DNA of 32,000 nt, taken from the NCBI GenBank assembly GCA_000200715.1, contig DP000238.1:924593-956592 (forward strand). Reading direction: 5' to 3'. Position 1 is the stretch's first letter, and each line of letters opens with the position of its first letter. Under the pieces are notes generated by a model. The model saw nothing but the letters and a program-made list of their open reading frames with translations, was not told the origin of the DNA and did no database searches. A program made the position numbers and the translations under genes. This stretch comes from Cenarchaeum symbiosum A (GTDB lineage Archaea > Thermoproteota > Nitrososphaeria > Nitrososphaerales > Nitrosopumilaceae). This document shows positions 4,101 through 25,476 of this stretch, piece after piece.

Positions 4101-7100
4101 GACGATGATCATATCCGAGAGAACAGGATCCATCCATGCGTACTCGCTCAACTCGCACCCGGTCAGGATCTGCGCCGCCCCGGGCATGCTGTCCGGGGGC
4201 GCATGCGCCCCGCCGGAGATGCCGCGGATCACAGATGCCGCGCTGGCTGGCGGCGTGGTGGTGCTCGAGTTTGACAGGACGATAGACGTCTCGACTGTCA
4301 ACATATCGAGAATGCACGTGGCCGACGGGCTGAACCTGAGCAGGAGCGTGGACCTCCACGGGGGCATCCTCGAGACCGCCTCGGATCTTGACACGCTAAG
4401 AATCAGGCACTCCGGCCTGCTCGGTGCTGAATTTGGAGACGCCTCCATTCACTTTGACGCAGGGGCACTTGAGGATTCCATGGGCATGCCGTTTCCCCCC
4501 GCGTTCGGGCTGCCCCTGCCCGCCCACGTGGAGACGCTCTCCGGGGTAGTAGGGGAGAGACCTACCGGGATGGCCTTTGATCCCGGCGGCATGCGCATGT
4601 ACGTGACTGGGCGGGACCCGGGGGCTGTGCGCATGTACGCGCTTCCGGGGCCCTTTGATATAGCGGGGGCCGTCGAGGGTGACGCGTTTTCTGTAGAAGA
4701 GGACGGCGTCCCGACGGGCATCGCGTTTTCCCCGAACGGCAGCCGCATGTTCCTCTCGGGGAACACGGGCGATTCCATATACGGGTACAATCTATCCATC
4801 CCGTACGATGTGACTACTTCCGTGCACTCGGAGACCTTTTCGGTGGCAGGCCAGGACGCCTCCCCCACGGGCGTGGCGTTCTCAGATGACGGCATGCACA
4901 TGATGGTCTCCGGGGATGCAGGGGACTCTGTATACGCGTATGTGCTAGCAGAGCCGTACGACATAACGGGCGCCGTGCATGCGGGCACGCTCGACATATC
5001 AGGACAGGAGACGGGCCCAAACGATATAGCCATCGGGCCGCTGGGGATGCGCGTCTTTGTAACAGGGGGCGCAGGAGGCGCTGTGCACATGTACGAGCTT
5101 GCCGAACAGTACTCGCTTGACGGGGCGCTATACTCTGCAACGCTTGCAGTGGGCGGCGAGGATTCCGCCCCCGTGGGCTCTGCATTCTCGGGGCACGGCC
5201 TTGACATATTCGTAATTGGCAACCAGAACGACGGCGTATACGGGTACGACCTTGCCGCGCCCTACGACCTCTCACAGGCGGGCACAGACCTGTACACGCC
5301 GGATGCCTCCGGCGACATAAACCCCACCGGGGCCGTCCTGTCCCCTGACGGCGCGCACCTCTTCATAACTGACAGCACGGAGGTAATAGACCTGCGGCAC
5401 GACCTGGCAGTCCCCAATTACATAGCATCTGCGGGCCCCGCCGGGACGCTGCCGACGGGCACGGCGGGCATCACGGGGGCGGACATATCAGCCGACGGGA
5501 CGATGATCTTTGTCATGAACAACAGCGATGATACGGTGTACAGGTATTCCATGGATGCCCCGTACGATGTATCAGCGGCAGTCGAGGACATGACTCTCGA
5601 CGTCTCCGGTCAGGAGAGGACGCCGACGGGGCTAGACGTCTCATCTGATGGAACATGGATCTTTGTCACCGGGATTACCAGCGATTCTGTGCACAGCTAC
5701 CGCATGGGCACGCCCTTTGATATAGGCGGGGCCGCATACAATGCATCCCTGGCCGTCCAGGACTCCGCCCCGCAGGGTGTAGCAGTGTCGGACGACGGGC
5801 TGTTCATCATGGTGGCGGGAAACGAAAACGACAGGCTGTACAGGTATGCCATGTCCTCCCCGTTCGACCTGAATACCGCGTCATATGCCGGCTCGTTTTA
5901 CACGGGAATGCAGGATGTTACGCCGCGGGACGTCTCGTTTGCGGCAGGCGGCACATCGGTCCTTGTGCCCGGGAGCAGCAACGACTCTGTGCACAAGTAC
6001 CCCCTGAATGTGCACCGCCTGGAGGTCTGCCAGGAGGGCGAGCGGTTCACAAACGGGGCATGCTCCGTCAGGGCGGCAGGGAGCCCATCCATGGTATCCG
6101 CCTCGATAGACGGCTCCGCCCTACTCAGCATGCTGTTTGACCAGGAGATAGATGCAGGCACGGTGGACGCTTCGAGAATCCACGTCAGGGACGGGGGAGG
6201 GTTTGACGGAGGGATTGCCCTGTCCGGATTAAACGCCACCATAAGCGGGGGGGCAGTAGAGTTTGTCCTGGGGACGGCGGATGCCGCCGAGGTGCTCGGA
6301 TATGAAAACCCGAGGCTGCACTTTGATTCAGGCGCGCTATCCAGCTCCGGCGGGGGGAGCTTTCCGCGCCCCTACGGGCTGCCCCTGCCGGCATACAGGG
6401 AGAGCGTGCCCGCGCCAGGAGACGGGACTGTTCCCGGAGGGCTGGCCTTTTCGCCTGACGGCATGCGGATGTACACGCTGGGCACAGGCAATGGAACCGT
6501 AGAAGAGTACAGCCTTTCTGGCCCCTACGATTCGTCTGGCGCCACGCTCCAGGGTTCACTGTACATAGGGGAGAGGGAGGAGAGCCCCACCGGGCTTGCC
6601 CTTGGGGATGACGGCAGCGCCCTATTTGTCGTGGGCACCGGTTCCGGTTCTGTGCACATGTATGATCTAGACTCTGCATACTCTGTAGAGAGCGCCACAT
6701 ATGCAGGCTCGAGGACGGTATCGGGGCAGGAGGGCGAGCCTGCAGGGGTCGCCTTCTCGTCAAACGGCACGCTCATGTTCGTCTTCGGGGAACAGACGGG
6801 GCAGGTGCACAGGTACGGCCTAGAGCAGCCGTACCGGCCAGGCGGGTCCGGGTACCTTGGAGTGTTTGACCCCGGGGACCTGCCGGGAATCCCGCAGGAT
6901 ATCATATTCTCGGCCGACGGGAGCGGCATGTCGCTGCTCTATTCCGGGGAGGTGCCGGGGGTCATCTCGGATGCGGTGCACCATTACCGGCTGGGGGCCC
7001 CGTACGAGACGGCGGGCGCCGCATACGCGGGCAACTATTCTGTAACCCGGTGGGATGACGAGCCCCGGGGCGCGGCCTATGCGGCCGACGGCAGCAGCAT

Positions 7101-10100
7101 GCTGGTTCTGGGCGCAGAAGGCATCCACAGGTATGATCTTGCCGCCCCGTTTGATCCCGTCAGGACCATCAGCTCGGGGCGGACAGATATCAGCTCCGAC
7201 GTGCAGTACCCGATAGATGCGGCATTCTCCGCGGATGGTACGAGGATGTTCGCGCTGGATCTGTCCGATCCGCACATTCACGTGTACGAGCTGGGCACGC
7301 CGTTTGACGCGCGCACCGCAAGCCGCACGATGCTGCTCAACCTGACAGAAGAGCGCAATCCAAAGGGTATAGAGTTCTCAAGGGACGGCACGCAGATGAT
7401 GATCCTCGGCAGGGAAGAGCTGCACAGGTATTCCCTTGACGAGCCGTTTGAAACAGAGCCCGTCCATGTATCGACCCAGGATGATTTCATCTTTATCGTA
7501 AACAGGTTCAGCGGGATGGACTTTTCATCCGACGGCCTGAGCCTGTTCCATACCAGCCTTGCCTCCCTGCAGGTCCAGGCGTTCAGCCTCGGTGCTCCAT
7601 ACGACATACGGTCGTATGCGCACCTGCCGTCACTGAACATAGGGGAGCTCGGCAGCCAGCCCGTGGCGCTTGCGTTCTCTGAATCAGGCGACAGGATGTT
7701 TGTTCTCGAGGCGGGATCCGACGGCCTGCACGAATACAGCCTTGGAATACCGTACAACCTGGACACGGCGGAGCGCGCGGGCACCCATGTGGCAGGCGTA
7801 TTAGATGCAAGCATCGGCGGGATCTCGTTTTCAAAAGACGGGCAGAAGCTGTACATTCTCAGCGACGTGCCGGGCACAATAGACCAGCATGTTATCGGCA
7901 CGCGCCAGCTCAACACATGCTCGGCAGATCAGGCGGCATTTGAGGGGACATGCAGGAGGGAGCTTGCCGTGCACGGAAGCGACGAGCCGGCAGTAAGCGA
8001 GAACCCGGCGCGGCACATCGGCGACGAGTCCGCGGTGGCGGACTCTGCGGTGGCCGAGATCACCTTCCATCAGGCTCCCGTGTTCAACGGGGCATTTCTG
8101 GACATGGGGGGGAGAATCCTCGAGCTGGCCTTTGACGAGGAGATAGACGTGGCAAGGCCGGAGAGAATGAGCATAACTGATTCAAAAGACTATGCGCAGG
8201 GCACATCCCTCGCAGGCGCCTCGGTGGGCGGGGAAGGCGGGATAGTGCGCCTCGGCCTGACGGCAGAACAGATGGCCGGGATAGCCAGTTATCAGAGCCC
8301 CGCGCTGCGCCTCGGGGAATTGGCCGTGATCGGAACCGGCGGCGGCGCGTTTCCGGGCCCCTACGATATAGCAGATGCGGCATACGTGGGATCGGCAGAC
8401 GTGGCTGGCGACGCATCCCACCCCACCGGGGTTGCATTTGCCCCAAACGGCTCGAGGTTCTTTGTGGCCGACCCCACAAATGTAAGAAGCAGGGTGGTCC
8501 AGTACGGCTGGGACGGCTCCAACATAGCTAGCGCCGCGCCCGAGGGGTCGGCTGTGCTCACCGGGCCGGAGAACTCCCGCAACATAGAGTTGGGCGGCAT
8601 CTCGCTTGACCCGGATGGCGGCAGGCTGCTGGCCACCGATATCGAGGGGTCCGCCAGGGTGTACTCGTATTCGATAGAGGGGGCGGAGATAGGCGCGCTG
8701 GAGTATGACGGGGGCAGCCTCAACACAAACAACAGGGCGAGCTTCCCGACGGACGCGGTGGCGGGCTTTGGGGGGCACAGGCTGTTTGTAAGCAATTATG
8801 TCGACAGCAGGATACACGTGTACAACCTGGACAGACCCCACGACATAGGCGCAGGCAGCGCGGCATACAACGGGTCCGTGCAGACAGATGCGGGCGGCCT
8901 CAACGCAACGGGCGTCTTTGTATCCCCCAACGGGGCGCACATGATCGTGACCCTCCAGGACGGGCTCGACGGGGGGAGAATACTCCGGTACAACATGTCC
9001 ACGCCGTTTGACGCATACGGGATAATACAGGACGGCGCGCTGGATATTTCGGGCGAGACCGTGGCGCCGCAGGGCGCGGCCTTTACACCCGACGGCCTCG
9101 AGATGATAGTGGTGGATAGTGCCGTGGGAATGCTGCGCCATTATTCCCTGGGAATACGGAACATCACAGTATGCGAGGAGGGGATGATTGTAGACTCGGG
9201 AATGTGCACCGTAGAGAGGGCGGACGCGACGAGCAGGCCCGGGGTCTCGGACAGAGCTTCCATCCGGGAGATGGCGCCGACGGTCCTCTCGGTCTCGCTG
9301 TACGCGGACCCGGGGGTGCTCGAGATAGCCTTTGATGCGGCGATAAACTCCAGCCTGACCGACCCCTCTAAAATGCACATAAGGGACGGATCCGCGCCGT
9401 CGGGCGGGACATCCCTTGCGGGCGGGGGCGTCGTGGGCAGCACGCCAGAGAATGCGGCGGGGATAAGCCTCACGCAGGCGCAGCTCTCCGAGATATCAGG
9501 GTACGAAAATCCCACCCTGCATCTGGCCCCCGGCGCACTGCAGAGCATCGGGGGCCACGCGTACCCGCCCGGCGGCGGCCTGCCATTCCCGTCGGAATAC
9601 GCGAGCATAGACCTTTTGGAATACGACAACTCTGCGGCAGCGATAGCATTCTCAGAAGACGGCACAAGGATGTTCATGATCGGGGGCGAGTTTGAGACCG
9701 TGTTTGCATTCGATCTGTCCCGGCCGTTTATGATAGATACTGCGCGGCCCGCGGGATCATTCCATGCAGGCGACGATGTGAGGTTTGTAGAAGACATGGA
9801 GTTTGCGCGCGGCGGGGGATCTGTATTTGTCTCCGATTCATCGACCGACCTTGTACATGCGTACGCGCTTGGCGCCCCCTACGACGTGACCACGGCAGTG
9901 CGCGAACAGACGCTGGACACGGGTGCCGACGGGCTGGACGCCAGGGGGACTGCCTTTTCGCGCGACGGCAGGACGCTGTTTGTGCTCGATGGGGACGAGA
10001 CTGCCGCCAGGTATGCCACATCCTCGCCCTACTACATAGAGGGGGCCGAGTATGAAGGGGACGTACCCGTGGACGGGGCGCGCTTTGTGACCAATATGGA

Positions 10101-13100
10101 GTTCTCCAGGGACGGCACCACGATGCTGATAGTCGCGGTCAACACCAGCGGCGCCTTCAGCCTGGAGATACTCCAGTATGGCATGGATGCGCCATTCGAT
10201 GTGGGATCGGCCGAGCCCGAGGGCACGCTCGATACGGAGATACTGGGGGATCCGGTGGATGTGGCGGTCTCGTCAGACGGCCTGCGGGCATTTGCAATAG
10301 CCGGCGGCACCAGCACCGTGCACGGCTTCTCCCTGGCCGGCGCGTTTGACGCGGCCCGGTATCCGCCGGCAGAGGGCGCGTACGTGGGCGCAGAAGAGCA
10401 GGCGCCAACGGGCGCGGCAGTCTCCGGCGACGGGTCCATCTTTGTAGTCGGGGAATCTGGGATGATACGCAGGTATGACGCGGGCTCCGGCGGGTATGCA
10501 GAGGCGTATTCCGGCGCGGACAGAAACGCCACGGCGGCCACGGATATTGCATTCTCGGATGACGGCATGCTTGTCTTCATACTTGATGACGGCTCCGATG
10601 CGCTGTACGGATACAGGGCGGACTCGCCGTACGAGCTCGGCGGGCTGCCGCCGGCAGGCAGCCTGTATGTTGGGGATAATTCAAGCTCGCCTGCGGGGGC
10701 TGCATTCTCGGATGGCGGGGGCAGGCTCTTTGTGGCGGATGGCGCGACGGGAATGGTGCACGGGTATTCGCTTGCGGCGCCCTATGCGCTGGATGGCGCC
10801 ACATATACGGGGTCGTACGATTCTTCAGAACAGCAGGGCGCCCCCACCGGGGTGGCATTCTCGCCCGGTGGCATGGAGATGTTCATTTCAGGGGGGGAGT
10901 TTGTGCACATGTACGGGCTTGATGCGCCCTATGAGGTGGAATCGGCAGACAGTTCAGGCTCGTTCTATACGGGAAGGCATGACGGCGCCATACAGGGCGT
11001 GGACTTTTTCCCCGGCGGCTCGGCCATGGCGGTGGTCGGGGATGAGACGGACACCGTATACGTCTACGCGCTGGGCACGCACCACATCAGAGAGTGCGGT
11101 TTGGAGTATTCCTCCGGCGTGTGCATGCCTGATGACCTGCTTGCATACGGAAGGGCGGCGCCAACAGTGGCCGATTCGGCCGGGCTGGCGGCATTGTTCT
11201 TCCTGTCGGGAGGCGACGCGCCGGCGGTTCTAGATCTGCCCGGCGTGGGCGAGATCCCCATCCTGCCCATACCCGTGCCCGGCGATGACAGCCCGTCATT
11301 TGCGGAACTGCCCGGCGTGAAAGTCATGATGGGTGTAGGTGCTCCGAATGGAACGGACAGGCCGACCGTGGCAGAGGAGCACCGCCTGGTCCGGACCGTG
11401 TCGTTGTCCGGAAACGACACCCTGACAGTTGAGGAGAGGGACGACGTGGGATCCATGGCAAGGCCGAATGCAACGGATGCGCCGGCCATATCCGATCCGG
11501 TCAGGGTGGCCGTATTGTTCCATCTGGAGGGAGACGACGCGCCGGCTGTTCTAGATCTGCCCAGCGTGGGCGAGATGGCCAATCGGCCCATACCCGTGCC
11601 CGGCGATGACAGCCCGTCATTTGCGGAACTGCCCGGCGTGAAAGTCATGATGGGTGGAGATGCTCCAAATGGAACGGACAGGCCGACCGTGGCCGAGGAG
11701 CACCGCCTGGTCCGGACCGTGTCGTTGTCCGGAAACGACACCCTGACAGTTGAGGAGAGGGACGACGTGGGATCCATGGCAAGGCCGAATGCAACGGATG
11801 CGCCGGCCATATCCGATCCGGTCAGGGTGGCCGTATTGTTCCATCTGGAGGGAGACGACGCGCCGGCTGTTCTAGATGTGCCCGGCGTGGGCGAGACGGC
11901 CAATCGGCCCATACCCGTGCCCGGCGATGACAGCCCGTCATTTGCGGAACTGCCCGGCGTGAAAGTCATGATGGGTGGAGATGCTCCGAATGGAACGGAC
12001 AGGCCGACCGTGGCAGAGGAGCACCGCCTGGTCCGGACCGTGTCGTTGTCCGGAAACGACACCCTGACAGTTGAGGAGAGGGACGACGTGGGATCCATGG
12101 CAACCCCGAATGCAACGGATGCGCCGGCCATATCCGATCCGGTCAGGGTGGCCGTATTGTTCCATCTGGAGGGAGACGACGCGCCGGCTGTTCTAGATCT
12201 GCCCGGCGTGGGCGAGACGGCCAATCGGCCCATACCCGTGCCCGGCGATGACAGCCCGTCATTTGCGGAACTGCCCGGCGTGAAAGTCATGATGGGTGGA
12301 GATGCTCCAAATGGAACGGACAGGCCGACCGTGGCAGAGGAGCACCGCCTGGTCCGGACCGTGTCGTTGTCCGGAAACGACACCCCGTCAGTTGAGGAGA
12401 GGGAAGACGTGGGCGGCATGAGCCGGAATGCAGTGGATAGGCCGGCCATATCCGATCCGGCCAGGCTGTCTGCACAGTTCTTCCTGTCTGGAGACGACGC
12501 GCCGACGGTTCTAGATGTGCCCAGCGTGAGCGATCGCGCGGAGCACACTGGCAGCGGTGTGATGTCGCCGCCTGACCTGCAGGTGGTTTCCACCGTGCTG
12601 GACAGCAGGGGCGTACTGGAGATAACCTTTGACGGATTGGTGGTCGCAGAGAATATAGACTACAACCTGATTAGCATTACCGACGGGTATGCGCCAGCCG
12701 GGCGCATACTGCTGTCCCCCGGCGAGCTCACCCATTCCGGGGAGAACAGTCTGCGCTATACCCTGGGCGAGAACAAGTGGAACCTTGTGCGGAATTATGC
12801 GGATCCCCGGCTGCGGGTCGACATCGGGGCACTCGGGCCGGGCCTGCCCGATGTAGGATACCGGCTGCCGGATTCATTGTACCCGTACGAGCCGGATGTT
12901 GTATCCGCGGCCCTGCCCAACAACACCGAGGGAGCGCATCAGGGACTTGCATTCTCGAGGGACGGCACGGTGATGTTCACGGTGGGTCTGAATCTGGACA
13001 CGGTGTTCCGGTATGTGCTAGAACAACCCTACGACATATCCTCGGCAAGAATTGAAGGAAACTACAGCGTGGGCGACCGGGAGGTCAACCCGCGCGGACT

Positions 13101-16100
13101 GGCGTTCTCCCCGGACGGGCTCAAGATGTTCGTCGTGGGAAACGATGCGGTGCACCAGTATGCACTGGGCTCGCAGTTTGGCTTCAGCCCCGCCCCGTCG
13201 TTCGAGCATGACTTTAGTGTGGCCGAGGACGGCCTGGTCACGGGAATAGACTTTGGGAATAACGGCACCAGGATGTACCTATCGGGCGCAAACAACAGCG
13301 CCATCCAGCAGTACGACCTCTCTACACCGTACGATATAGAGGCGCAGCCCGTCCATGCGGGGAACTTTAGCACCGCCGGCCAGTATGACTCGCCCCGCGG
13401 GGTAGTAGTCTCCGGCGACGGCCGCATCATGCTGGTACTGGGCCAGCCGGACGACAAGGTGTTCATGTACGGGATGGACGAGCCGCACGATATATCCACC
13501 GCAGGGTATGTGGGCTCCCACGAGATCACAAACTCGGAGCGCAACCCGGAGGGAATAGCGGCGTCGGACGACGGAAGGCTGCTCTTTGTCACGGGCACCG
13601 TGACCAACAGTGTGTTCAGGTACAATCTCGGGGCGCCGTACGATGCGGCCCGGGACGGGGCGGGGGCCGGGCCCACCCTGACCAATACCATCAGGGCCCC
13701 TACGGGGATTGTATTTTCCCCTGACGGCCTGCAGTTGTTCCTCTCCTCCCACGGTGCAGATCTTGTACAATCGTACAACCTGACAGCCCCCTATGGCGTG
13801 GCGACGGCCACGCCTGCGGACACTTATAATCTTCCCGTGGACCCCGGCCGCAATCGTCCATTTGATGTGGAATTTTCCACGGATGGCCTCCTGATGTTTA
13901 CCACCGGGCGTAACCCCCTAAGACTGTATTCGTTTACGCTGGATGCGCCGTACAACATATTGTCGGCCGTGGAGAATAGCAGGTACGACATAACGATAGC
14001 GCCGTTGAATACTCAGACGGGCGTGATATTCAACCCCAATGGGACCATCATGCTGCTTGCAGCGGGAACCCGCGGCGGCGGCATCATACAGGAATACAAC
14101 CTCCCCAGCCCGTACAACATATCCGGCGCCGTGGCGGCCCCGTTCAGCATAACGGACGGGCTGGTCCCGCTGGGGATTACATACTCGTCGGACGGGCACA
14201 GGCTCTTCGTCATGGATGATGCCGAGGTGGTGCACAGGTACGACCTTCTAACGCCGTATACGCTGAGGGATGCCCTGTTTGTGGACTCTGGTGAATTCAA
14301 AGACGGTGCCCAGCCCAACGACTTGGCGTTCTCCGGTGACGGCGGAAAGATGTTCATAGCCTGGGGCAACGATAACAGGATAGAGACGTACAACCTGACA
14401 GCCCCCTACGACATAACCTCGTCTGCCAGCCCCGTGTCCCTTTCAGCGGACACCGGCTCCCCCACCCCGAGCGACGTCTCCGTGAGCGCAGACGGCAGGA
14501 CGGTGCTTGTATTCAACAATGTACGGGACGCGGTCATTGGGCACAGCCTACGCCAGCCGTACGACCTGTCCACACCCGCATCATCGGTCCAATCGGCAGA
14601 GGCCGACAACACCAATGTAAACGCGATGGAGTTCTCACCCAACGGGACGCTGATGTTCCTGTCGGGATGGAACGAGACAAGTCCCATAGTACAAGGACGA
14701 ACTGTCTATACGTACAACCTGAGCGCCCCGTTTGACGTATCCACGTTCCAGCGCATAGGCGAGTTTCACACCCGGGATGCGGTAAATGCGCTGACGGGAG
14801 ACGCCAGTATAAGCAGCCCCTCGGCAATGAGGTTCTCGGCTGACGGGACGGATCTGTATCTAATAGACGAAATCGATCAGTTGATACATCACTTTAGCCT
14901 GAGCAGCCCGTACCTGCTTGACAATACGACTGCCTATGTGGAAGCCCTTGATGTCAATCCGCCGGAGAGCAACCCCTCCGGGCTTGAACTGTCGGCCGAC
15001 GGCACAAGGCTGTTCATCACGGGGGCCGGCAGTGACCGCATACGCCAGTACGACATGGATATCGCGTACAACCTCTCCACCGCCGTGCATTCGGAATCGA
15101 TCAACGCGGTCGGGCTCGACAGCCAGGCCCGTGGGCTTGCATTCTCAGAGGACGGCTCTAGATTGTTCTTTGTCGGGGATGATACGGATCGGATATACCT
15201 GCTTGATCTGGCGGCCCCCGAGGTCATACGTGTACTGCCCGGCATGTTAGATGATGTGATATCTGTGACGCACAACGTAACGGCGGTGGACAGGCCCTCT
15301 ATCTCCGATGGCCGCCCAGACTCCACGGTTAAACCCATATCCGCCGGAGACGCCCCGTCATTTGTGGATGCGCCCGGCGTGGACGCCATGATAGGTAGGG
15401 ATGTGATGGATGCGCCGGCCGTATCCGATCCGGCCAGGCTGGCTGTATCGTTCCACCTGACGGGAGACGACGCGCCGGCGGTTCTAGATGTGCCCGGCGT
15501 GGGCGAGACGGCCAATCGGCCCATACCCGTGCCCGGCGATGACAGCCCGTCATTTGCGGAACTGCCCGGCGTGAAAGTCGTGATGGATGTAGATGCTCCA
15601 AATGGAACGGACAGGCCGACCGTGGCCGAGGAGCACCGCCTGGTCCGGACCGTGTCGTTGTCCGGAAACGACACCCTGACAGTTGAGGAGAGGGAAGACG
15701 TGGGCGGCATGAGCCGGAATGCAGTGGATAGGCCGGTCATATCCGATCCGGTCAGGGTGGCCGTATTGTTCCATCTGGAGGGAGACGACGCGCCGGCGGT
15801 TCTAGATGTGCCCGGCGTGGGCGAGATGGCCAACCAGTCCATACCCAGGCCCGCCGAGGATAGACCGTCATTCATGGATCTATCCGGTGTGGACTTTGCG
15901 GCGGTCAGGAATGCGGCAGACGCGCCGGCCGTGTCCGACGAGCCCAATCTGGCCCGGAGCACATCCATATCCGGAAATGATTCGCCATCATTCGAGGATA
16001 TGCCCGGCGTGGGCGGCATGGTAGCCCCGAATGCAGCGGATGCGCCGGCCATATCCGATCCGGCCAGGGTGGCCGTATTGTTCCATCTGGAGGGAGACGA

Positions 16101-18441
16101 CGCGCCGGCGGTTGATGATCTGCCCAGCGTGGGCGAGACGGCCAATCGGCCCATACCCGTGCCCGGCGATGACAGCCCGTCATTTGCGGAACTGCCCGGC
16201 GTGAAAGTCATGATGGGTGTAGGTGCTCCGAATGGAACGGACAGGCCGACCGTGGCAGAGGAGCACCGCCTGGTCCGGACCGTGTCGTTGTCCGGAAACG
16301 ACACCCTGACAGTTGAGGAGAGGGACGACGTGGGATCCATGGCAAGGCCGAATGCAACGGATGCGCCGGCCATATCCGATCCGGCCAGGGTGGCTGTATT
16401 GTTCCATCTGGAGGGAGACGACGCGCCGGCGGTTGATGATCTGCCCAGCGTGGGCGAGACGGCCAATCGGCCCATACCCGTGCCCGGCGATGACAGCCCG
16501 TCATTTGCGGAACTGCCCGGCGTGAAAGTCATGATGGGTGGAGATGCTCCGAATGGAACGGACAGGCCGACCGTGGCAGAGGAGCACCGCCTGGTCCGGA
16601 CCGTGTCGTTGTCCGGAAACGACACCCTGACAGTTGAGGAGAGGGACGACGTGGGATCCATGGCAACCCCGAATGCAACGGATGCGCCGGCCATATCCGA
16701 TCCGGTCAGGGTGGCCGTATTGTTCCATCTGGAGGGAGACGACGCGCCGGCGGTTCTAGATGCGCCCGGCGTGGGCGAGATCCCCGTCCTACCCATACCC
16801 CTGCCCGGCGGAGATAGCCCGTCATTCATGGAACTGCCCGGCGCGAACGTTATGACGGGCGGGGATACGGTAAACAGGAGTGCAGCGGATGCGCCGACCG
16901 TGGCCGAAGACCAACGCGTGGCCCGGAGCACATCCATATCCGAAGATGATTCCCCGACATTTGAGGAGATGCCCGGCGTGGGCGGCATGACTAGCCGGGA
17001 TGCGGCGGATATGCCTGCCGTCTCCGATCCGGTCAGGGTGGCCGTATTGTTCTTCCTGTCGGGAGATGACGCACCGGCGGTTCTAGACGTGCCCCGCGTG
17101 GACAGCAGCATCGGGGACATGCCCGGCGCGGGCCATGGCGATGACACACTGGCCGTGGCTGATCATGCCAGCCTCGGGGTATACAGGATGGCGTCCGACG
17201 CGCCGGTCATTGAAGATATAATGGATACAATAGTCAATGGCACGTTCCGGCTCACCCCGAGAGATATTCCGGTCGTGGCTGATCCGGCCAGGCTGGCTGC
17301 ACAGTTCTTCCTGTCGGGAGATGACGCACCTACTGTTCTAGATGTGCCCGGCGTGAATAGCGGCGTCGAGGATGCACCAACCGTGTCTGATCACGCCAGC
17401 ATCGGGTTCTCCCGGATGGCATCCGACGAGCCGGCCGTGGCAGATTCCGCCCAGCCCGGCGACCTGATGTTCCGCGATACTCCAGACGTCGAAGATTCGG
17501 CGGCGCTCGGCCTCTCCATTACTGTCTCCGACGAGCCCGCCGTGGCCGACCGCACGCCGGGTATAGAACCGGCAGACAGTCCGGCAGTCTCGGATTCGGC
17601 CGTGCATGCAGTCATGCCGGGTCCGCCGGCAGAACCCGAGCCCCGGCCCGCGCCGAGCCCCGCACCCCGGTCCGGCGGGGGCGGCGGAGGCGGCAGCCGC
17701 ACCGGAGTCACCTTCGAGGGCGGCGCATCCTCGGGGCACAGCGTATCGTTTAGCTTCATCTCAAGCGCGGCAGACGCAATGCACGGCCTGTCGGACATAC
17801 GCCTGGCACCCGGCGCGGCCCTTACGGTGGCGCCCCAGATGGTCCCCGACAACCTAAACGTCTTCGAGATGGAGCTGGCCTTTGGCACGGACGACGGCGC
17901 GGCTGCAAACGTCCATTACAGCAGGATAGGCAACTTCCTCGGGATTACCTGCGACGGGGACGCGTATACATCCGGGATGCTGCACGCGTGCGACATCTCG
18001 TCCGCCATATCCGAGGATTCCGTCACAGTCCACGGGGAGGGCCCTGCCTTTGAGGGGATAACCGTGCCCTTTGAGGGCGACTTTGAGGGGACCGTCAGCA
18101 TACTCCTCCGGGACAGCCGCGGCATAATCTTGGCCGCGCATGAATCCGACGTGTACGGCATACAGACAGCCCTGCCCGCGGAGCCGGAGCCCCCCGCCCC
18201 CGCCGAGATCGCCCCCGCCGTGGATGATGCCGCCCCGGAGGAGCCCCGCCGCGCAGAGCCCGATCCGGAGCCTGTGGAGCGCGCCCCGGAGCCGGAGCCT
18301 GAGCCCAGCGCGGATCCGGTGCGCATTGCGGGGCCCGAGCCTGCAGACCCCGAGCCCGAGGATGAGGGGGTCATAGGGATGATAGTCGACTTTATCAGGT
18401 CCGTCCTGGGCCGGGTCTGGCCTGCGGCCGGCACCCCATGA
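1..18441 (+). CDS. Giant extracellular repeat protein, 5'-partial (6,146 codons visible). It contains beta-propeller blade arrays, Cys-hairpin/Ig-like spacers, two acidic 107-aa tandem-repeat arrays and a Pro/Glu-rich C-terminus.
   Basis: Frame 1 is open from nt 1 to the TGA at 18439-18441. Nt 1-48 encode AAYADSAESGSGEPGG with no stop and resemble the inter-blade loops seen later (e.g. ATYAGSRTVSGQEGEPAG), so the ATG at 49 is internal. There are 73 copies of the blade motif G-[VIL]-[AD]-[FIL]-S-x-D-G-x-x-[ML]-[FLIV]-V ... [HRQ]-x-Y-x-L-x-x-P-[YF]-D-[IV]-x-x-A, 7 spaced Cys hairpins and in-frame 321-bp repeats. An 18.4-kb open frame with periodic conservation cannot arise by chance. Confidence 0.92.
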   Translation, partial: AAYADSAESGSGEPGGMIFSADGTSMYLLDADDGGVREYSISPPYGFDSVSSVMLHEIEGAANLTGMTFSPDGTAIFISGDAGIFRYELPAEYSPAGAVLSGRFTPAAPAGAPADIEISADGLHLVVAGADGSIHGYALDRQSELGARGVPRALNLGGGSVPAGVAFSGNGSIAYVADSGSGEVRAYGLASPYDIQGAASIFSLSVPAVPAGVALSPDGQRMLVPEPGGILQYVLGTPYDLSSAVLGVSFVPDEEPDPRGVAFTPDGLRMFVSGPEFIHRYGLAEPYNVDDPAYAGSDASPIPSTEGVAFSDHGYRMFVAGGGAVSAYSLDDPFAPSTAIHDGSFDLGDGADPRGVAFSADGSRMFVPGGGNEFVLQYAVGTHRIDVCPDGMSVFEGGCTMTGPAGGPRLVSAAMDPRTGELEMFFDRAMDPGLSTGIVQIRDGVSPAGGTTLAGSFSAGPRPEVLRITLENDSRAEAAEFADPRLYFGNDALQGLDGGFFPAAFDAPRTEFTGVLDVSTWDTTVRGVTFSHDGLQVFTVSHGDTIVRFVLSEPYDINTASHARTYGGNIQDEAGSGIRFSSDGMIMFTSDWGKDAIHRYDLVSPYELDGRVRGGSFNVRSQTGTPFGLDFSADGSIMFVISSNPGTLFRYDLGIPYDVRSAVLDSRLDISGELTAGHGVDFAPDGMRFIAAGFEFEGPDATSTDVNQYDLSEPYNITSAVHAGAYIVPAAQGGFTNDIALSEDGTVFLLADPQFDAIQQFRLAEPFDLLPRAYHASANITAHAPEPEDIVIYGNGSRMLILDGDAGGVYEYGIAEPHDVRTMSYTGVFQNVTRDGGSPSGLALSPDGTLMLVSGSPQGHVSAYALGTAHDISSAAYSSSLNVSDMAPDPTGVDISDDGSWLFVSRERGSRGDVHRYHLAEPFEIGTALYLDTLDTDKDGRPSEAALGTDGLYLLATNRDLGAVAHYTMDVPFEIDGGVLEYVLDVSPEEAAPAGLDVADDGSSMHVAGAGGIHQYLFDGRPLEYCSEGQSIYNGACAGGLPEAPSITSAAAMLQAGGGTIEVRFDRQVRADTARPSIINITDGGAAAGFALNPGSAAGTGNVLSFAIDADGAAELAGQAGPVVRFGAGSLLADNGAAFPPVFGLSPLMYEGAVDTSAQAASVGGAAFGAGGSRLFVAGEDGMIHRYDLPVPFWPAGATHAESHDFGAGGLAGVALSDNGRRIFVISGADGRIDQYNLGTAFDLGGPVHMGSFDTGANASGIYLAPGGANMLVSNSSGSVHRYALGALFDVTSAVPAGSADTGAIEPTGVAFSADGLNMIVSDRSGMLHSYALGVGFDLGSLVRGGTFSSAVQSPSPADVAFSPDGTTMIISERTGSIHAYSLNSHPVRICAAPGMLSGGACAPPEMPRITDAALAGGVVVLEFDRTIDVSTVNISRMHVADGLNLSRSVDLHGGILETASDLDTLRIRHSGLLGAEFGDASIHFDAGALEDSMGMPFPPAFGLPLPAHVETLSGVVGERPTGMAFDPGGMRMYVTGRDPGAVRMYALPGPFDIAGAVEGDAFSVEEDGVPTGIAFSPNGSRMFLSGNTGDSIYGYNLSIPYDVTTSVHSETFSVAGQDASPTGVAFSDDGMHMMVSGDAGDSVYAYVLAEPYDITGAVHAGTLDISGQETGPNDIAIGPLGMRVFVTGGAGGAVHMYELAEQYSLDGALYSATLAVGGEDSAPVGSAFSGHGLDIFVIGNQNDGVYGYDLAAPYDLSQAGTDLYTPDASGDINPTGAVLSPDGAHLFITDSTEVIDLRHDLAVPNYIASAGPAGTLPTGTAGITGADISADGTMIFVMNNSDDTVYRYSMDAPYDVSAAVEDMTLDVSGQERTPTGLDVSSDGTWIFVTGITSDSVHSYRMGTPFDIGGAAYNASLAVQDSAPQGVAVSDDGLFIMVAGNENDRLYRYAMSSPFDLNTASYAGSFYTGMQDVTPRDVSFAAGGTSVLVPGSSNDSVHKYPLNVHRLEVCQEGERFTNGACSVRAAGSPSMVSASIDGSALLSMLFDQEIDAGTVDASRIHVRDGGGFDGGIALSGLNATISGGAVEFVLGTADAAEVLGYENPRLHFDSGALSSSGGGSFPRPYGLPLPAYRESVPAPGDGTVPGGLAFSPDGMRMYTLGTGNGTVEEYSLSGPYDSSGATLQGSLYIGEREESPTGLALGDDGSALFVVGTGSGSVHMYDLDSAYSVESATYAGSRTVSGQEGEPAGVAFSSNGTLMFVFGEQTGQVHRYGLEQPYRPGGSGYLGVFDPGDLPGIPQDIIFSADGSGMSLLYSGEVPGVISDAVHHYRLGAPYETAGAAYAGNYSVTRWDDEPRGAAYAADGSSMLVLGAEGIHRYDLAAPFDPVRTISSGRTDISSDVQYPIDAAFSADGTRMFALDLSDPHIHVYELGTPFDARTASRTMLLNLTEERNPKGIEFSRDGTQMMILGREELHRYSLDEPFETEPVHVSTQDDFIFIVNRFSGMDFSSDGLSLFHTSLASLQVQAFSLGAPYDIRSYAHLPSLNIGELGSQPVALAFSESGDRMFVLEAGSDGLHEYSLGIPYNLDTAERAGTHVAGVLDASIGGISFSKDGQKLYILSDVPGTIDQHVIGTRQLNTCSADQAAFEGTCRRELAVHGSDEPAVSENPARHIGDESAVADSAVAEITFHQAPVFNGAFLDMGGRILELAFDEEIDVARPERMSITDSKDYAQGTSLAGASVGGEGGIVRLGLTAEQMAGIASYQSPALRLGELAVIGTGGGAFPGPYDIADAAYVGSADVAGDASHPTGVAFAPNGSRFFVADPTNVRSRVVQYGWDGSNIASAAPEGSAVLTGPENSRNIELGGISLDPDGGRLLATDIEGSARVYSYSIEGAEIGALEYDGGSLNTNNRASFPTDAVAGFGGHRLFVSNYVDSRIHVYNLDRPHDIGAGSAAYNGSVQTDAGGLNATGVFVSPNGAHMIVTLQDGLDGGRILRYNMSTPFDAYGIIQDGALDISGETVAPQGAAFTPDGLEMIVVDSAVGMLRHYSLGIRNITVCEEGMIVDSGMCTVERADATSRPGVSDRASIREMAPTVLSVSLYADPGVLEIAFDAAINSSLTDPSKMHIRDGSAPSGGTSLAGGGVVGSTPENAAGISLTQAQLSEISGYENPTLHLAPGALQSIGGHAYPPGGGLPFPSEYASIDLLEYDNSAAAIAFSEDGTRMFMIGGEFETVFAFDLSRPFMIDTARPAGSFHAGDDVRFVEDMEFARGGGSVFVSDSSTDLVHAYALGAPYDVTTAVREQTLDTGADGLDARGTAFSRDGRTLFVLDGDETAARYATSSPYYIEGAEYEGDVPVDGARFVTNMEFSRDGTTMLIVAVNTSGAFSLEILQYGMDAPFDVGSAEPEGTLDTEILGDPVDVAVSSDGLRAFAIAGGTSTVHGFSLAGAFDAARYPPAEGAYVGAEEQAPTGAAVSGDGSIFVVGESGMIRRYDAGSGGYAEAYSGADRNATAATDIAFSDDGMLVFILDDGSDALYGYRADSPYELGGLPPAGSLYVGDNSSSPAGAAFSDGGGRLFVADGATGMVHGYSLAAPYALDGATYTGSYDSSEQQGAPTGVAFSPGGMEMFISGGEFVHMYGLDAPYEVESADSSGSFYTGRHDGAIQGVDFFPGGSAMAVVGDETDTVYVYALGTHHIRECGLEYSSGVCMPDDLLAYGRAAPTVADSAGLAALFFLSGGDAPAVLDLPGVGEIPILPIPVPGDDSPSFAELPGVKVMMGVGAPNGTDRPTVAEEHRLVRTVSLSGNDTLTVEERDDVGSMARPNATDAPAISDPVRVAVLFHLEGDDAPAVLDLPSVGEMANRPIPVPGDDSPSFAELPGVKVMMGGDAPNGTDRPTVAEEHRLVRTVSLSGNDTLTVEERDDVGSMARPNATDAPAISDPVRVAVLFHLEGDDAPAVLDVPGVGETANRPIPVPGDDSPSFAELPGVKVMMGGDAPNGTDRPTVAEEHRLVRTVSLSGNDTLTVEERDDVGSMATPNATDAPAISDPVRVAVLFHLEGDDAPAVLDLPGVGETANRPIPVPGDDSPSFAELPGVKVMMGGDAPNGTDRPTVAEEHRLVRTVSLSGNDTPSVEEREDVGGMSRNAVDRPAISDPARLSAQFFLSGDDAPTVLDVPSVSDRAEHTGSGVMSPPDLQVVSTVLDSRGVLEITFDGLVVAENIDYNLISITDGYAPAGRILLSPGELTHSGENSLRYTLGENKWNLVRNYADPRLRVDIGALGPGLPDVGYRLPDSLYPYEPDVVSAALPNNTEGAHQGLAFSRDGTVMFTVGLNLDTVFRYVLEQPYDISSARIEGNYSVGDREVNPRGLAFSPDGLKMFVVGNDAVHQYALGSQFGFSPAPSFEHDFSVAEDGLVTGIDFGNNGTRMYLSGANNSAIQQYDLSTPYDIEAQPVHAGNFSTAGQYDSPRGVVVSGDGRIMLVLGQPDDKVFMYGMDEPHDISTAGYVGSHEITNSERNPEGIAASDDGRLLFVTGTVTNSVFRYNLGAPYDAARDGAGAGPTLTNTIRAPTGIVFSPDGLQLFLSSHGADLVQSYNLTAPYGVATATPADTYNLPVDPGRNRPFDVEFSTDGLLMFTTGRNPLRLYSFTLDAPYNILSAVENSRYDITIAPLNTQTGVIFNPNGTIMLLAAGTRGGGIIQEYNLPSPYNISGAVAAPFSITDGLVPLGITYSSDGHRLFVMDDAEVVHRYDLLTPYTLRDALFVDSGEFKDGAQPNDLAFSGDGGKMFIAWGNDNRIETYNLTAPYDITSSASPVSLSADTGSPTPSDVSVSADGRTVLVFNNVRDAVIGHSLRQPYDLSTPASSVQSAEADNTNVNAMEFSPNGTLMFLSGWNETSPIVQGRTVYTYNLSAPFDVSTFQRIGEFHTRDAVNALTGDASISSPSAMRFSADGTDLYLIDEIDQLIHHFSLSSPYLLDNTTAYVEALDVNPPESNPSGLELSADGTRLFITGAGSDRIRQYDMDIAYNLSTAVHSESINAVGLDSQARGLAFSEDGSRLFFVGDDTDRIYLLDLAAPEVIRVLPGMLDDVISVTHNVTAVDRPSISDGRPDSTVKPISAGDAPSFVDAPGVDAMIGRDVMDAPAVSDPARLAVSFHLTGDDAPAVLDVPGVGETANRPIPVPGDDSPSFAELPGVKVVMDVDAPNGTDRPTVAEEHRLVRTVSLSGNDTLTVEEREDVGGMSRNAVDRPVISDPVRVAVLFHLEGDDAPAVLDVPGVGEMANQSIPRPAEDRPSFMDLSGVDFAAVRNAADAPAVSDEPNLARSTSISGNDSPSFEDMPGVGGMVAPNAADAPAISDPARVAVLFHLEGDDAPAVDDLPSVGETANRPIPVPGDDSPSFAELPGVKVMMGVGAPNGTDRPTVAEEHRLVRTVSLSGNDTLTVEERDDVGSMARPNATDAPAISDPARVAVLFHLEGDDAPAVDDLPSVGETANRPIPVPGDDSPSFAELPGVKVMMGGDAPNGTDRPTVAEEHRLVRTVSLSGNDTLTVEERDDVGSMATPNATDAPAISDPVRVAVLFHLEGDDAPAVLDAPGVGEIPVLPIPLPGGDSPSFMELPGANVMTGGDTVNRSAADAPTVAEDQRVARSTSISEDDSPTFEEMPGVGGMTSRDAADMPAVSDPVRVAVLFFLSGDDAPAVLDVPRVDSSIGDMPGAGHGDDTLAVADHASLGVYRMASDAPVIEDIMDTIVNGTFRLTPRDIPVVADPARLAAQFFLSGDDAPTVLDVPGVNSGVEDAPTVSDHASIGFSRMASDEPAVADSAQPGDLMFRDTPDVEDSAALGLSITVSDEPAVADRTPGIEPADSPAVSDSAVHAVMPGPPAEPEPRPAPSPAPRSGGGGGGGSRTGVTFEGGASSGHSVSFSFISSAADAMHGLSDIRLAPGAALTVAPQMVPDNLNVFEMELAFGTDDGAAANVHYSRIGNFLGITCDGDAYTSGMLHACDISSAISEDSVTVHGEGPAFEGITVPFEGDFEGTVSILLRDSRGIILAAHESDVYGIQTALPAEPEPPAPAEIAPAVDDAAPEEPRRAEPDPEPVERAPEPEPEPSADPVRIAGPEPADPEPEDEGVIGMIVDFIRSVLGRVWPAAGTP
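1540..3066 (+). repeat. Propeller module P1 (10 blades).
   Basis: I counted ten S-x-D-G-type blade cores by eye, from GVTFSHDG to GLDVADDG. The module ends at the hairpin LEYC..GAC (3076-3111). Confidence 0.75.
3457..4160 (+). repeat. Propeller module P2 (5 blades).
   Basis: The blade cores are AAFGAGG, VALSDNG, IYLAPGG, VAFSADG and VAFSPDG. The module ends at the hairpin VRIC..GAC (4171-4206). Confidence 0.75.
4531..6018 (+). repeat. Propeller module P3 (10 blades).
   Basis: There are ten blade cores, from GMAFDPGG to DVSFAAGG. The module ends at the hairpin LEVC..GAC (6028-6063). Confidence 0.75.
6400..7908 (+). repeat. Propeller module P4 (10 blades).
   Basis: There are ten blade cores, from GLAFSPDG to GISFSKDG. 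The module ends at the hairpin LNTC..GTC (7918-7953). Confidence 0.75.
8362..9162 (+). repeat. Propeller module P5 (5 blades).
   Basis: The blade cores are VAFAPNG, ISLDPDG, VAGFGGH, VFVSPNG and AAFTPDG. The module ends at the hairpin ITVC..GMC (9172-9207). Confidence 0.7.
9595..11085 (+). repeat. Propeller module P6 (10 blades).
   Basis: There are ten blade cores, from AIAFSEDG to GVDFFPGG. The module ends at the shorter hairpin IREC..GVC (11095-11124, C-x8-C). Confidence 0.75.
11191..12540 (+). repeat. Tandem-repeat array A: about 4.2 copies of a 321-bp (107-aa) in-frame unit.
   Basis: Unit starts (codon V/A of A-[AV]-LF[FH]L) fall at 11191, 11512, 11833 and 12154, and a partial fifth unit starts at 12475. 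Units 2 and 3 differ at only 4 of 107 aa. The unit sequence is AVLFHLEGDDAPAVLDLPSVGEMANRPIPVPGDDSPSFAELPGVKVMMGGDAPNGTDRPTVAEEHRLVRTVSLSGNDTLTVEERDDVGSMARPNATDAPAISDPVRV. Confidence 0.95.
12910..15215 (+). repeat. Propeller module P7 (15 blades), with no terminal Cys hairpin.
   Basis: There are fifteen blade cores, from GLAFSRDG to GLAFSEDG. An Ig-like spacer (~12560-12880) precedes the module, and array B follows it directly. Confidence 0.75.
15290..17600 (+). repeat. Tandem-repeat array B: 6-7 units of 312-327 bp of the same family as array A, decaying at both ends.
   Basis: Unit starts fall at 15445, 15763, 16075, 16396, 16717 and 17044, and a degenerate unit starts near 17299. The units at 16075 and 16396 are near-identical to array A units, down to the GVG versus GGD and ARPNAT versus ATPNAT variants. 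The units at 15763 and 16717 are a divergent subtype (..ARSTSIS..DSPSFE.MPGVGGM..). Confidence 0.9.
17610..18441 (+). other. C-terminal region of the giant protein: a Pro-rich linker, a Gly7 run, a domain of about 150 aa with a C-x12-C pair, a Pro/Glu-rich tail and an 18-aa amphipathic end.
   Basis: The Pro-rich linker and Gly run read PGPPAEPEPRPAPSPAPRSGGGGGGGS. The Cys pair is ITC..(x12)..C at nt 17950-17991. The tail reads ALPAEPEPPAPAE...PEPEPEPSADP...PEPEDE and the protein ends GVIGMIVDFIRSVLGRVWPAAGTP*. Confidence 0.7.
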
Positions 18442-21655: not shown

Positions 21656-21665
21656 TTTTTAAATA
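21656..21665 (+). promoter_or_regulatory. TATA-like box (TTTTTAAATA) about 24 nt upstream of the ATG at 21685.
   Basis: It marks the left edge of the low-GC islet. Confidence 0.5.
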
Positions 21666-21684
21666 CCTCTGGTCATTTTCTATC

Positions 21685-22239: not shown

Positions 22240-22254
22240 AAACGATTGTTACGG

Positions 22255-22259
22255 TTTTT
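22255..22259 (+). terminator. Oligo-T (T5) 16 nt after the stop of the Panacea-like gene.
   Basis: Archaeal termination commonly uses short T-runs. This run is short, so confidence is low. Confidence 0.3.
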
Positions 22260-25410: not shown

Positions 25411-25476
25411 ATAAACATGCCACGGGGACGCCGGTTCAACCCTTAAAATGCCGGCCGCCGGCCGGCGGGTTGTACC

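What the first reader, a model, noticed from the sequence alone, without database searches (positions are those of the whole stretch)
15290..17600. Array B shares near-identical units with array A about 2.9 kb away, which suggests intragenic gene conversion or recombination
Array B has units starting at 15445, 15763, 16075, 16396, 16717 and 17044. Some of its copies match specific array A variants. The unit at 16075 carries the MMGVGAPNG variant of A-unit 1, and the unit at 16396 carries the GSMATPNATD variant of A-unit 3. Two interleaved units (15763 and 16717) are instead a divergent subtype (..ARSTSIS..DSP[ST]FE.MPGVGGM..). Shared variants between arrays indicate sequence exchange. Unequal recombination between A and B would delete or duplicate the intervening Ig-like spacer plus the 15-blade module P7 in frame. 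That would be a built-in mechanism for switching the architecture of a surface protein.
Basis: partly seen in the sequence, partly recalled or inferred. Interest (0 to 1): 0.7.

Follow-up and report, generated by a model that had tools for sequence, protein, structure and literature searches.

The report
Two repeat arrays exchanging sequence
Inside one giant surface-protein gene of the sponge-dwelling archaeon Cenarchaeum symbiosum, two separate runs of a 321-base repeat carry patches of identical DNA. This is best explained by ordinary copying (gene conversion) between the runs; a purpose-built switch is not supported.

Summary
One open reading frame of more than 6130 aa holds two 321-nt (107-aa) tandem arrays, A at 11197-12477 and B at 15451-17304.

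The longest exact repeats in the region lie between the arrays, at 304 nt and 236 nt. Of 29 informative sites, 24 are shared across arrays. Trees for different parts of the unit disagree, and at least 6 recombination events are needed. Unit dN/dS is close to 1, so selection does not explain the identity. Outside the arrays, the comparable modules of the gene are only 20-37% identical at protein level.

The best explanation is concerted evolution of two related linker arrays through gene-conversion patches. Each unit is five copies of a roughly 20-aa D-x-P-x-V-x-D linker motif, and the region is probably a disordered acidic stalk.

Recombination between A and B would indeed be in frame, because every offset is a multiple of 3. 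No deletion or duplication variant could be found, and no recombinase lies nearby, so a "built-in switch" is speculation.

Paralogues in the same genome change architecture exactly at such linkers, which supports slow evolutionary module shuffling. This is a known kind of process in an uncharacterised, lineage-restricted protein family. Interest is modest.

The parts
1..18441 (+). Giant ORF. The listed start is the ATG at 49 (6130 aa), but the frame is open from base 1, so the gene may continue upstream of the window. It is built of repeated modules: beta-propeller, C-x(n)-C loop and Ig-like spacer. The source is Cenarchaeum symbiosum A, and this is the gene just upstream of TatC (ABK77531.1).
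11155..11196 (+). A0: a single linker motif (AAPTVADSAGLAAL) after the C-x(n)-C loop, leading into array A.
11197..12477 (+). Array A: four units (A1 11197, A2 11518, A3 11839, A4 12160) of 321/318 nt. Each unit is five D-x-P-x-V-x-D sub-motifs.
12478..12528 (+). A5 stub (FFLSGDDAPTVLDVPSV): a truncated terminal unit related to the B6/B7 junction. Homology to the paralogue CENSYa_0917 begins immediately after it, at SDRAE (12529).
12529..15288 (+). Intervening unique segment: Ig-like spacer 7 and the last propeller of about 15 blades. It is 70% identical at protein level to the corresponding part of the paralogue CENSYa_0917.
15289..15450 (+). B0: a degenerate half unit (DRPSISDG...PARLAVS).
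15451..17049 (+). Array B full units: B1 15451 (type I with the older 't' tail), B2 15769 (type II), B3 16081, B4 16402 (both type I) and B5 16723 (type II).
17050..17616 (+). Degenerate terminal units B6 (17050, 255 nt) and B7 (17305), followed by trailing short motifs.
11885..12188 (+). 304-nt tract in A3 and the start of A4, exactly identical to 16448-16751 (B4 and the start of B5). Offset 4563 = 3 x 1521.
16448..16751 (+). Partner of the 304-nt tract. On its left lie the B3/B4-only variant at columns 34-36 and the A at column 46, which A2 also carries; on its right, column 30 of the next unit.
11265..11500 (+). 236-nt tract in A1, exactly identical to 16149-16384 (B3). Offset 4884 = 3 x 1628.
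16149..16384 (+). Partner of the 236-nt tract. The 5' part of B3 matches B4, and its 3' tail carries the PAR variant of B2 and A4.
17695..18180 (+). Conserved C-terminal domain following a glycine run. Among named hits the family is found only in C. symbiosum giant proteins. A Pro/Glu-rich tail and a predicted terminal helix (about 18370-18417) follow.

Best explanation
Arrays A and B are two related copies of one repeat family inside a single giant, probably secreted, multi-propeller protein of Cenarchaeum symbiosum A. The 321-nt unit is a higher-order repeat of five copies of a roughly 20-aa acidic, proline-rich linker motif (D-x-P-x-V-x-D). The same motif occurs singly in other inter-module linkers of this protein, and as 38- to 45-aa higher-order units in its paralogues. 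The arrays most likely encode a flexible, weakly constrained stalk or spacer. They evolve in concert. Homologous recombination between misaligned units, probably during repair or replication on the same or the sister chromosome, has copied patches of 236-304 nt between the arrays. It has also spread one derived unit variant (..DDVGSMA[RT]PNAT..) to A1-A3 and to B3-B4. Older variants survive at array edges (A4, B1, the A5 stub, B6, B7) and as type II units (B2, B5). What is shown: the mosaic pattern, the patches bounded on both sides, the near-neutral evolution of the units, and the absence of similarity in the flanks. What is inferred: the enzymatic route (RadA-type homologous recombination or template switching), the direction of transfer, and the stalk function. 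A crossover between A and B would delete or duplicate the spacer and last propeller in frame. I regard that as a possible by-product and not a demonstrated function.
For: (1) Exact inter-array tracts of 304 and 236 nt are longer than any within-array match. (2) The mean number of differences between type I units is about the same between arrays (18.9) as within A (21.3) or within B (20.7), derived from the matrix. (3) Of 29 parsimony-informative sites, 24 have the minor allele shared by an A unit and a B unit; 159 of 406 site pairs fail the four-gamete test, and Rm is at least 6. (4) Trees for three segments of the unit disagree: (B3,B4) at the 5' end, (A1,B3) and (A3,B4) in the middle, and (A4,B1) at the 3' end. 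(5) Permutation tests show that differences cluster. (6) dN/dS is 0.4-1.7 among units and about 1 for most pairs. dS is 0.018 for A3-B4 against 0.30-0.40 between type I and type II, so identity extends to silent sites and is not due to selection. (7) The Ig-like spacers of the same gene are only 20-37% identical at protein level, and no other nucleotide-level repeat exists in the gene. (8) Comparison with the paralogue CENSYa_0917: the flanking spacer and propeller are 70% identical, and type II unit B5 is 75% identical to its counterpart. Type I units are only 63-64% identical to theirs, while being 80-97% identical to each other across both arrays. Homogenisation therefore happened after the paralogues split. 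(9) The motif occurs 59 times in the protein: 22 in A, 34 in B and 3 in other linkers. (10) AlphaFold gives no structure for two units (pLDDT 41.7). The arrays are 17-18% Asp+Glu and 11.5% Pro, with no Trp or Cys and almost no Tyr.
Against: Only one assembled sequence is available, so no event has been observed directly and no polymorphism data exist. The direction of transfer (A to B or B to A) cannot be polarised. Clustering of differences could partly reflect uneven mutation or constraint along the unit. The AlphaFold result rests on a shallow alignment of 7 rows, so disorder is suggestive only. The genome was assembled from clone libraries of a natural population (my recollection of the genome paper, which is not in the library). 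Some interior unit assignments could therefore be assembly-dependent.
Confidence: 0.75

Rival explanations
1. One-off segmental copy: a block of array B (or A) was duplicated once into the other position, and the two copies have simply diverged since, with no further exchange.
For: A1-A2-A3 can be derived from a B3-B4-like pair plus one unequal crossover: (VG,R)-(GD,R)-(GD,T) from (VG,R)-(GD,T). The paralogue CENSYa_0917 has a different, 42-aa-unit array at the position of A, so 107-aa units at A may be a late arrival.
Against: No contiguous stretch of B is collinear with A. A lacks type II units and B6. A4 alone combines a type I body, a B1-like tail and a B6-like end. Differences between matched units are strongly clustered instead of evenly spread. 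At least 6 recombination events are required. B3 and B4 share variants absent from all A units (columns 34-36), flanking their A-identical patches.
Confidence: 0.1
2. Assembly artefact: reads from near-identical units were assigned to the wrong array when the genome was assembled, which created the shared tracts.
For: The units are 97-98% identical and both arrays would lie on one large-insert clone. The genome is a composite from an uncultured population (from memory; the paper could not be read). The only other data set containing this locus is a semi-synthetic metagenome built from reference genomes, so it gives no independent check.
Against: Each array keeps private variants: column 30 T in A2-A4 and columns 34-36 GAT in B3/B4. 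Both arrays also keep distinct edge units. All junctions stay in frame with no stop in 6130 codons. The A4/B1 sharing involves 14 sites in units anchored next to unique flanks.
Confidence: 0.08
3. Dedicated architecture switch: the two arrays are maintained as recombination targets so that cells can delete or re-insert the spacer and last-propeller module, giving surface variation.
For: All A-to-B offsets are in frame. In the paralogue family, homology breaks exactly at linker arrays. The window gene and CENSYa_0917 match from SDRAE at the 3' edge of array A onward. CENSYa_0917 matches CENSYa_0582 up to the start of its array. AAC62699.1 matches CENSYa_0842 up to the linker after the C-x(n)-C loop.
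Against: No deletion or duplication variant was found. There is no recombinase, reverse transcriptase or silent cassette in the window. The patches look like conversion without crossover. A deletion cannot be reversed within a lineage without a donor copy. The paralogue breakpoints separate sequences that are only 70-78% identical, so they reflect old events and not frequent switching.
Confidence: 0.06
4. Convergence or purifying selection keeps independently evolving units alike.
For: None beyond the similarity itself.
Against: dN/dS is about 1, and silent sites are as conserved as replacement sites within the tracts. dS is 0.018 for A3-B4 against 0.3-0.4 between type I and type II.
Confidence: 0.01

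Closest known systems
Intragenic tandem repeats of bacterial surface proteins that recombine (group B Streptococcus alpha C and Rib; M protein repeat blocks; Staphylococcus SasG/Aap; Enterococcus Esp). Comparison from my own knowledge.
   Same: In-frame repeats of hundreds of bases, near-identical at nucleotide level, lie in a large secreted protein. They evolve by unequal recombination or conversion, and copy number changes protein length.
   Different: Here two arrays separated by 2.9 kb of unique coding sequence share units. The host is an archaeon. The unit is itself a five-part higher-order repeat of a linker motif and not a folded domain. Size variants have not been observed.
Yeast FLO and Candida ALS adhesin repeats (Verstrepen et al. 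2005; from my own knowledge).
   Same: Intragenic repeats act as recombination substrates. Exchange between arrays and paralogues creates new alleles and chimeric genes.
   Different: In yeast, recombination frequency and its functional consequence were measured. Here both are only inferred.
Higher-order repeat satellites with homogenised interiors and divergent edges (from my own knowledge).
   Same: A short motif is nested in a longer unit. Interior units are near-identical, while edge units (A4, the A5 stub, B0, B1, B6, B7) are older and more divergent.
   Different: The repeats here are coding and in frame, within a single gene.
Extender regions of giant adhesins (Marinomonas MpIBP, SiiE, LapA/BapA) and giant archaeal surface proteins such as halomucin (from my own knowledge).
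   Same: A very large modular surface protein contains a long repetitive segment that probably projects the ligand-binding modules away from the cell.
   Different: Those extenders are folded Ig-like domains. Here AlphaFold finds no fold, and the sequence is acidic, Pro-rich and low in complexity.
CENSYa_0917, 0566, 0582, 0842, 0848 and related paralogues of C. symbiosum A.
   Same: They share the C-terminal domain (30-44% identity). The paralogues I read in full have the same propeller modules and arrays of the D-x-P-x-V motif. CENSYa_0917 shares the whole 3' core at 70% identity and has 107-109-aa units.
   Different: Their arrays use other higher-order unit lengths (38 to about 45 aa). None I examined has a second 107-aa-type array upstream of the last module.

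Membership tests
Ectopic (non-allelic) gene conversion between repeats | Tracts of identity bounded on both sides by diverged sequence | tested here: met
   The 236-nt and 304-nt exact tracts each end at a difference from the matching A unit on both sides (left: B-only GAT plus the column-46 A also found in A2).
Ectopic (non-allelic) gene conversion between repeats | Phylogenetic incongruence along the sequence (mosaicism) | tested here: met
   Rm is at least 6 and 159 of 406 site pairs are incompatible. Segment trees are discordant. Permutation p values range from 1e-4 to 3e-3.
Ectopic (non-allelic) gene conversion between repeats | Silent-site divergence in the tract far below that of the surrounding paralogous sequence | tested here: met
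   dS is 0.018 for A3-B4 against 0.30-0.40 between type I and type II. Comparable modules elsewhere in the gene are 20-37% identical at protein level.
Ectopic (non-allelic) gene conversion between repeats | Donor and recipient identified with an outgroup | tested here: inconclusive
   The only outgroup is the paralogue CENSYa_0917. It shows that ..VGG.. tails are older and ..VGSMA.PNAT.. is derived, but it does not show in which array the derived form arose.
Recombining tandem-repeat surface proteins (alpha C / FLO type) | In-frame tandem repeats that are near-identical at DNA level | tested here: met
Recombining tandem-repeat surface proteins (alpha C / FLO type) | Repeat-number or architecture variants among isolates or population reads | not testable with these tools
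   No second copy of the locus exists in any collection. The Logan hit comes from a synthetic data set.
Recombining tandem-repeat surface proteins (alpha C / FLO type) | Export to the cell surface | tested here: inconclusive
   The N-terminus lies outside the window. The paralogues CENSYa_0917 and CENSYa_0842 start with signal-peptide-like hydrophobic segments, judged by eye. No prediction tool was run.
Programmed variation systems (silent-cassette conversion, shufflons, diversity-generating retroelements) | A dedicated recombinase or reverse transcriptase, or silent donor cassettes, at the locus | tested here: not met
   Pfam scans of the giant ORF and of ten downstream ORF products show none; four more neighbours carry ordinary source names (TatC, UbiX, an ATP-grasp enzyme, Trk). 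Both arrays are translated parts of one ORF.
Folded repeat-domain extender (BIg/Ig-like) | The unit folds as an autonomous domain | tested here: not met
   AlphaFold gives pLDDT 41.7 and no secondary structure, from a shallow alignment. There is no Pfam match in the arrays. The unit decomposes into five 19-24-aa motifs.

The most novel reading that the evidence does not exclude
The D-x-P-x-V-x-D linker arrays act as recombination joints for a whole family of at least 12 giant propeller proteins in Cenarchaeum symbiosum. Homologous exchange at these joints, within a gene (A x B) and between paralogues, swaps, deletes or duplicates propeller modules. The symbiont population would then carry a combinatorially variable surface coat, an archaeal analogue of antigenic variation that could matter for recognition by the sponge host or by viruses.
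Probability: 0.15. Interest if true: 0.7.

Novelty: new member of a known kind. Interest (0 to 1): 0.35.

Why it matters
Concerted evolution of repeats in surface proteins is well known in bacteria and fungi but rarely documented in archaea. Here it occurs in an uncharacterised family of giant proteins that, among the hits whose source I looked up, comes only from a sponge symbiont. The result identifies which parts of the gene are fast-evolving spacer and which are conserved modules. It shows that family members differ in architecture exactly at these linkers. It also gives concrete, testable predictions: in-frame deletions of 4563 or 4884 nt, and copy-number variants. These could be checked with long reads from the sponge holobiont. 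It does not reveal a new mechanism.

Tried and rejected
1. I looked for the locus or its relatives in other genomes and metagenomes. The genome-contig scan with the region 11101-18438 found nothing. Two metagenome-contig scans found nothing. The source genome's own records appear to be hidden from these collections.

2. I tested synteny. UbiX relatives from 80 genomes (77% identity or less) have no homologue of the giant protein within 10 kb.

3. The exact TatC match in the Logan run ERR2185279 looked like independent population data. That run is a semi-synthetic metagenome built from reference genomes, so I rejected it as evidence.

4. Word-indexed protein searches were swamped by low-complexity words. 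One returned only CENSYa_0566, one returned nothing, and one returned only distant propeller proteins at about 30% identity.

5. I first read P0009 as an orthologue from another species. The cluster look-up showed it is CENSYa_0917, a paralogue in the same genome, and I reworded the argument accordingly.

6. AlphaFold models of two units and of the C-terminal domain had too low a confidence for a fold search.

7. The genome paper (PMC1643844) is not held in the library, and no paper mentions the locus tags.

8. I rejected the idea that one array was split by insertion of the spacer and propeller. A4 and B1 carry the same part of the unit, so they are copies of each other and not two halves of one unit.
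Full report
**Source and context**

Four neighbouring proteins are exact matches to Cenarchaeum symbiosum A entries: TatC (ABK77531.1), UbiX (ABK77534.1), an ATP-grasp enzyme (ABK77539.1) and a Trk transporter (ABK77541.1), all on the 2,045,086-bp chromosome. The window therefore comes from this uncultured sponge-symbiotic thaumarchaeon. The finding lies inside one very long ORF, listed as 49-18441 and 6130 aa. Its frame is open back to base 1, so the gene may be longer. By accession arithmetic it is probably ABK77530, which would be CENSYa_0897 or 0898; I did not verify this.

The protein is modular. It has seven copies of a propeller, a C-x(n)-C loop and an Ig-like spacer, then a last propeller of about 15 blades, and then a C-terminal domain. 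The propellers match the Lactonase and SGL Pfam families.

**Checking the observation**

Tandem Repeats Finder and the repeat finder both report two arrays of period 321 nt. With the anchor F[FH]L.GDDAP, the units start as follows:
- Array A: A1 11197, A2 11518, A3 11839, A4 12160, and a 17-aa stub A5 at 12478.
- Array B: B1 15451, B2 15769, B3 16081, B4 16402, B5 16723, B6 17050 and B7 17305.

Nucleotide identity is 98.1% for A3-B4, 97.2% for A2-B4 and 94.4% for A1-B3. B2 and B5 are a divergent type II, 75-78% identical to type I and 80% to each other.

The two longest exact repeats in the whole region lie between the arrays. They are 304 nt (11885-12188 = 16448-16751) and 236 nt (11265-11500 = 16149-16384).

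**Is it exchange?**

Among the seven type I units, 29 sites are parsimony-informative. In 24 of them the minor allele is shared by an A unit and a B unit. Only five are private to one array: column 30 in A2-A4, columns 34-36 in B3/B4, and column 59 in A1/A2. Of 406 site pairs, 159 fail the four-gamete test, and the Hudson-Kaplan minimum is 6 events.

Neighbour-joining trees do not group units by array, and (A4,B1) has 99.8% bootstrap support. Trees for three segments of the unit disagree: (B3,B4) and (A1,B5) at the 5' end, (A1,B3) and (A3,B4) in the middle, and (A3,B4), (A1,A2,B3) and (A4,B1) at the 3' end. A GENECONV-style permutation test shows that differences are clustered, with p about 1e-4 for A1-B3, 9e-4 for A3-B4 and 0.003 for A4-B1.

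B3 and B4 each look like a patch.
- B3 has a 5' part identical to B4, with the variant GAT at columns 34-36 that only B3 and B4 carry. Its central 236 nt are identical to A1 and include the A1/B3-only VG variant. Its 3' tail carries the PAR variant of B2 and A4.
- B4 has the same 5' part, followed by 304 nt identical to A3 that run 29 nt into the next unit.

Patches bounded on both sides are the expected product of conversion without crossover.

Selection is not the cause. dN/dS among units is about 1 for most pairs (range 0.4-1.7). dS is 0.018 for A3-B4 against 0.30-0.40 between types.

A recent duplication that included the flanks is also excluded. The Ig-like spacers are 20-37% identical at protein level, and no other nucleotide-level repeat exists in the gene.

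A single block copy does not fit either. No contiguous part of B is collinear with A, and A4 alone combines three B-unit types.

**What the units are**

Each 107-aa unit breaks into five sub-motifs of 19-24 aa that start with D-x-P-x-[VFI]-x-[DE]. A loose pattern for this motif matches 59 times in the protein: 22 times in array A, 34 in array B, and 3 in other inter-module linkers at aa 2645, 3062 and 5081. The arrays are thus expansions of the ordinary linker motif into a higher-order repeat.

They are acidic, with net charges of -45 and -91. They contain 11.5% Pro and no Trp or Cys, and almost no Tyr. They have no Pfam match. AlphaFold gives pLDDT 41.7 with no secondary structure, though from a shallow alignment. 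I infer a flexible stalk or spacer.

**Family context**

An exhaustive HMMER search with the C-terminal domain found only 17 representatives among 1.84 billion proteins. The eight I looked up are seven C. symbiosum A paralogues (CENSYa_0582, 0816, 0842, 0846, 0848, 0917, 1361) plus AAC62699.1, labelled 'unknown [Cenarchaeum symbiosum]'; the separate hit CENSYa_0566 also comes from this genome. Those I read carry arrays of the same short motif but with other higher-order lengths, from 38 to about 45 aa. Only CENSYa_0917, and in part CENSYa_0848, carry 107-109-aa-type units.

CENSYa_0917 shares the 3' core with the window gene. The Ig-like spacer and last propeller are 70% identical. Homology starts exactly at P[SG]VSDRAE, the 3' edge of array A. 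Upstream of that point CENSYa_0917 has a 42-aa-unit array and modules 78% identical to CENSYa_0582.

Type II unit B5 is 75% identical to its CENSYa_0917 counterpart, about the same as the flanking sequence. Type I units are only 63-64% identical to theirs, yet 80-97% identical to each other across both window arrays. The type I variant therefore spread through both arrays after the paralogues diverged, which is concerted evolution. The ..VGG.. tails of A4 and B1 resemble the paralogue and type II units, so they are the older state and they sit at the array edges.

In a similar way, AAC62699.1 matches CENSYa_0842 at 70% identity up to the linker after a C-x(n)-C loop, and only at 26% beyond it. 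Architecture in this family thus changes at linker arrays on an evolutionary timescale.

**The switching idea**

All A-to-B offsets of matching tracts are multiples of 3: 4563, 4884, 4242, 5205, 3933, 3612, 3921, 3291, 4254, 3609 and 3930. A crossover would therefore be in frame. For example, it would remove 1521 aa, comprising A4, the spacer, the last propeller and B0-B3.

There is no evidence that this happens or is used. No variant molecule could be retrieved. The one other data set containing this locus is synthetic. No recombinase or reverse transcriptase was seen among the window ORFs (Pfam scans; source names). The observed patches are of the kind that preserves the intervening module.

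**Caveats**

Only one assembled sequence exists. From memory, the genome was assembled from clones of a natural population; the paper could not be read. Misassignment of reads among 97-98% identical units therefore cannot be excluded. However, the private variants, the distinct edge units and the uninterrupted frame argue against it.

**Verdict**

Exchange between the arrays is well supported and is best described as gene-conversion-driven concerted evolution of two related linker arrays. The "built-in switch" remains an untested possibility. This is a new example of a known process in an uncharacterised archaeal protein family.

Noticed in passing
window 28896-29276 (+); tandem repeats 28984-29217: A 126-aa ORF with an N-terminal hydrophobic segment followed by Met/Asp-rich repeats (MMDDTMMDE...; periods 15, 33 and 66 nt). 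It has no Pfam match. In a copper-dependent ammonia oxidiser, a Met-rich acidic repeat could bind metal.
   Followed up: partly
window 14934-17147 (-) and 11064-12593 (-): Long antisense ORFs (737 and 509 aa) lie exactly over arrays B and A. They are most likely a by-product of GC-rich, stop-poor repeats and not genes.
   Followed up: no
window 21000-22300: GC falls to 0.49, against 0.55-0.65 elsewhere. The ORF at 21685-22239 (184 aa) has no Pfam match. This may be a small foreign insert.
   Followed up: partly
window 1-48: The reading frame of the giant ORF is open from the first base of the window (AAYADSAESGSGEPGG before the first Met). The gene probably extends upstream, and the true protein would then be longer than 6130 aa.
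   Followed up: partly
window 13001-15000: The last propeller module has lower GC (0.58-0.60) than the rest of the giant gene (0.61-0.65).
   Followed up: no
window 17641-18438: The C-terminal region consists of a glycine run, a beta-rich domain of about 150 aa, a Pro/Glu-rich tail and a terminal helix (G.I..I.DF.RS.LG). The family has only 17 representatives among 1.84 billion proteins, and every hit whose source I looked up is from C. symbiosum. It may be a lineage-specific cell-surface anchor. The AlphaFold confidence was too low for a fold search.
   Followed up: partly
paralogues outside the window (CENSYa_0917, 0582, 0842; AAC62699.1): CENSYa_0917 looks like a chimera. Its aa 2064-3351 are 78% identical to CENSYa_0582, and its 3' core is 70% identical to the window gene, with the join at a linker array. 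AAC62699.1 and CENSYa_0842 share 70% identity only up to a linker.
   Followed up: partly
window 24961-25404 (-): A small ORF with a bifunctional nuclease domain (PF02577) overlaps the 5' end of the Trk-type transporter gene on the opposite strand. The longer 267-aa ORF call at 24961-25764 is probably over-extended.
   Followed up: no
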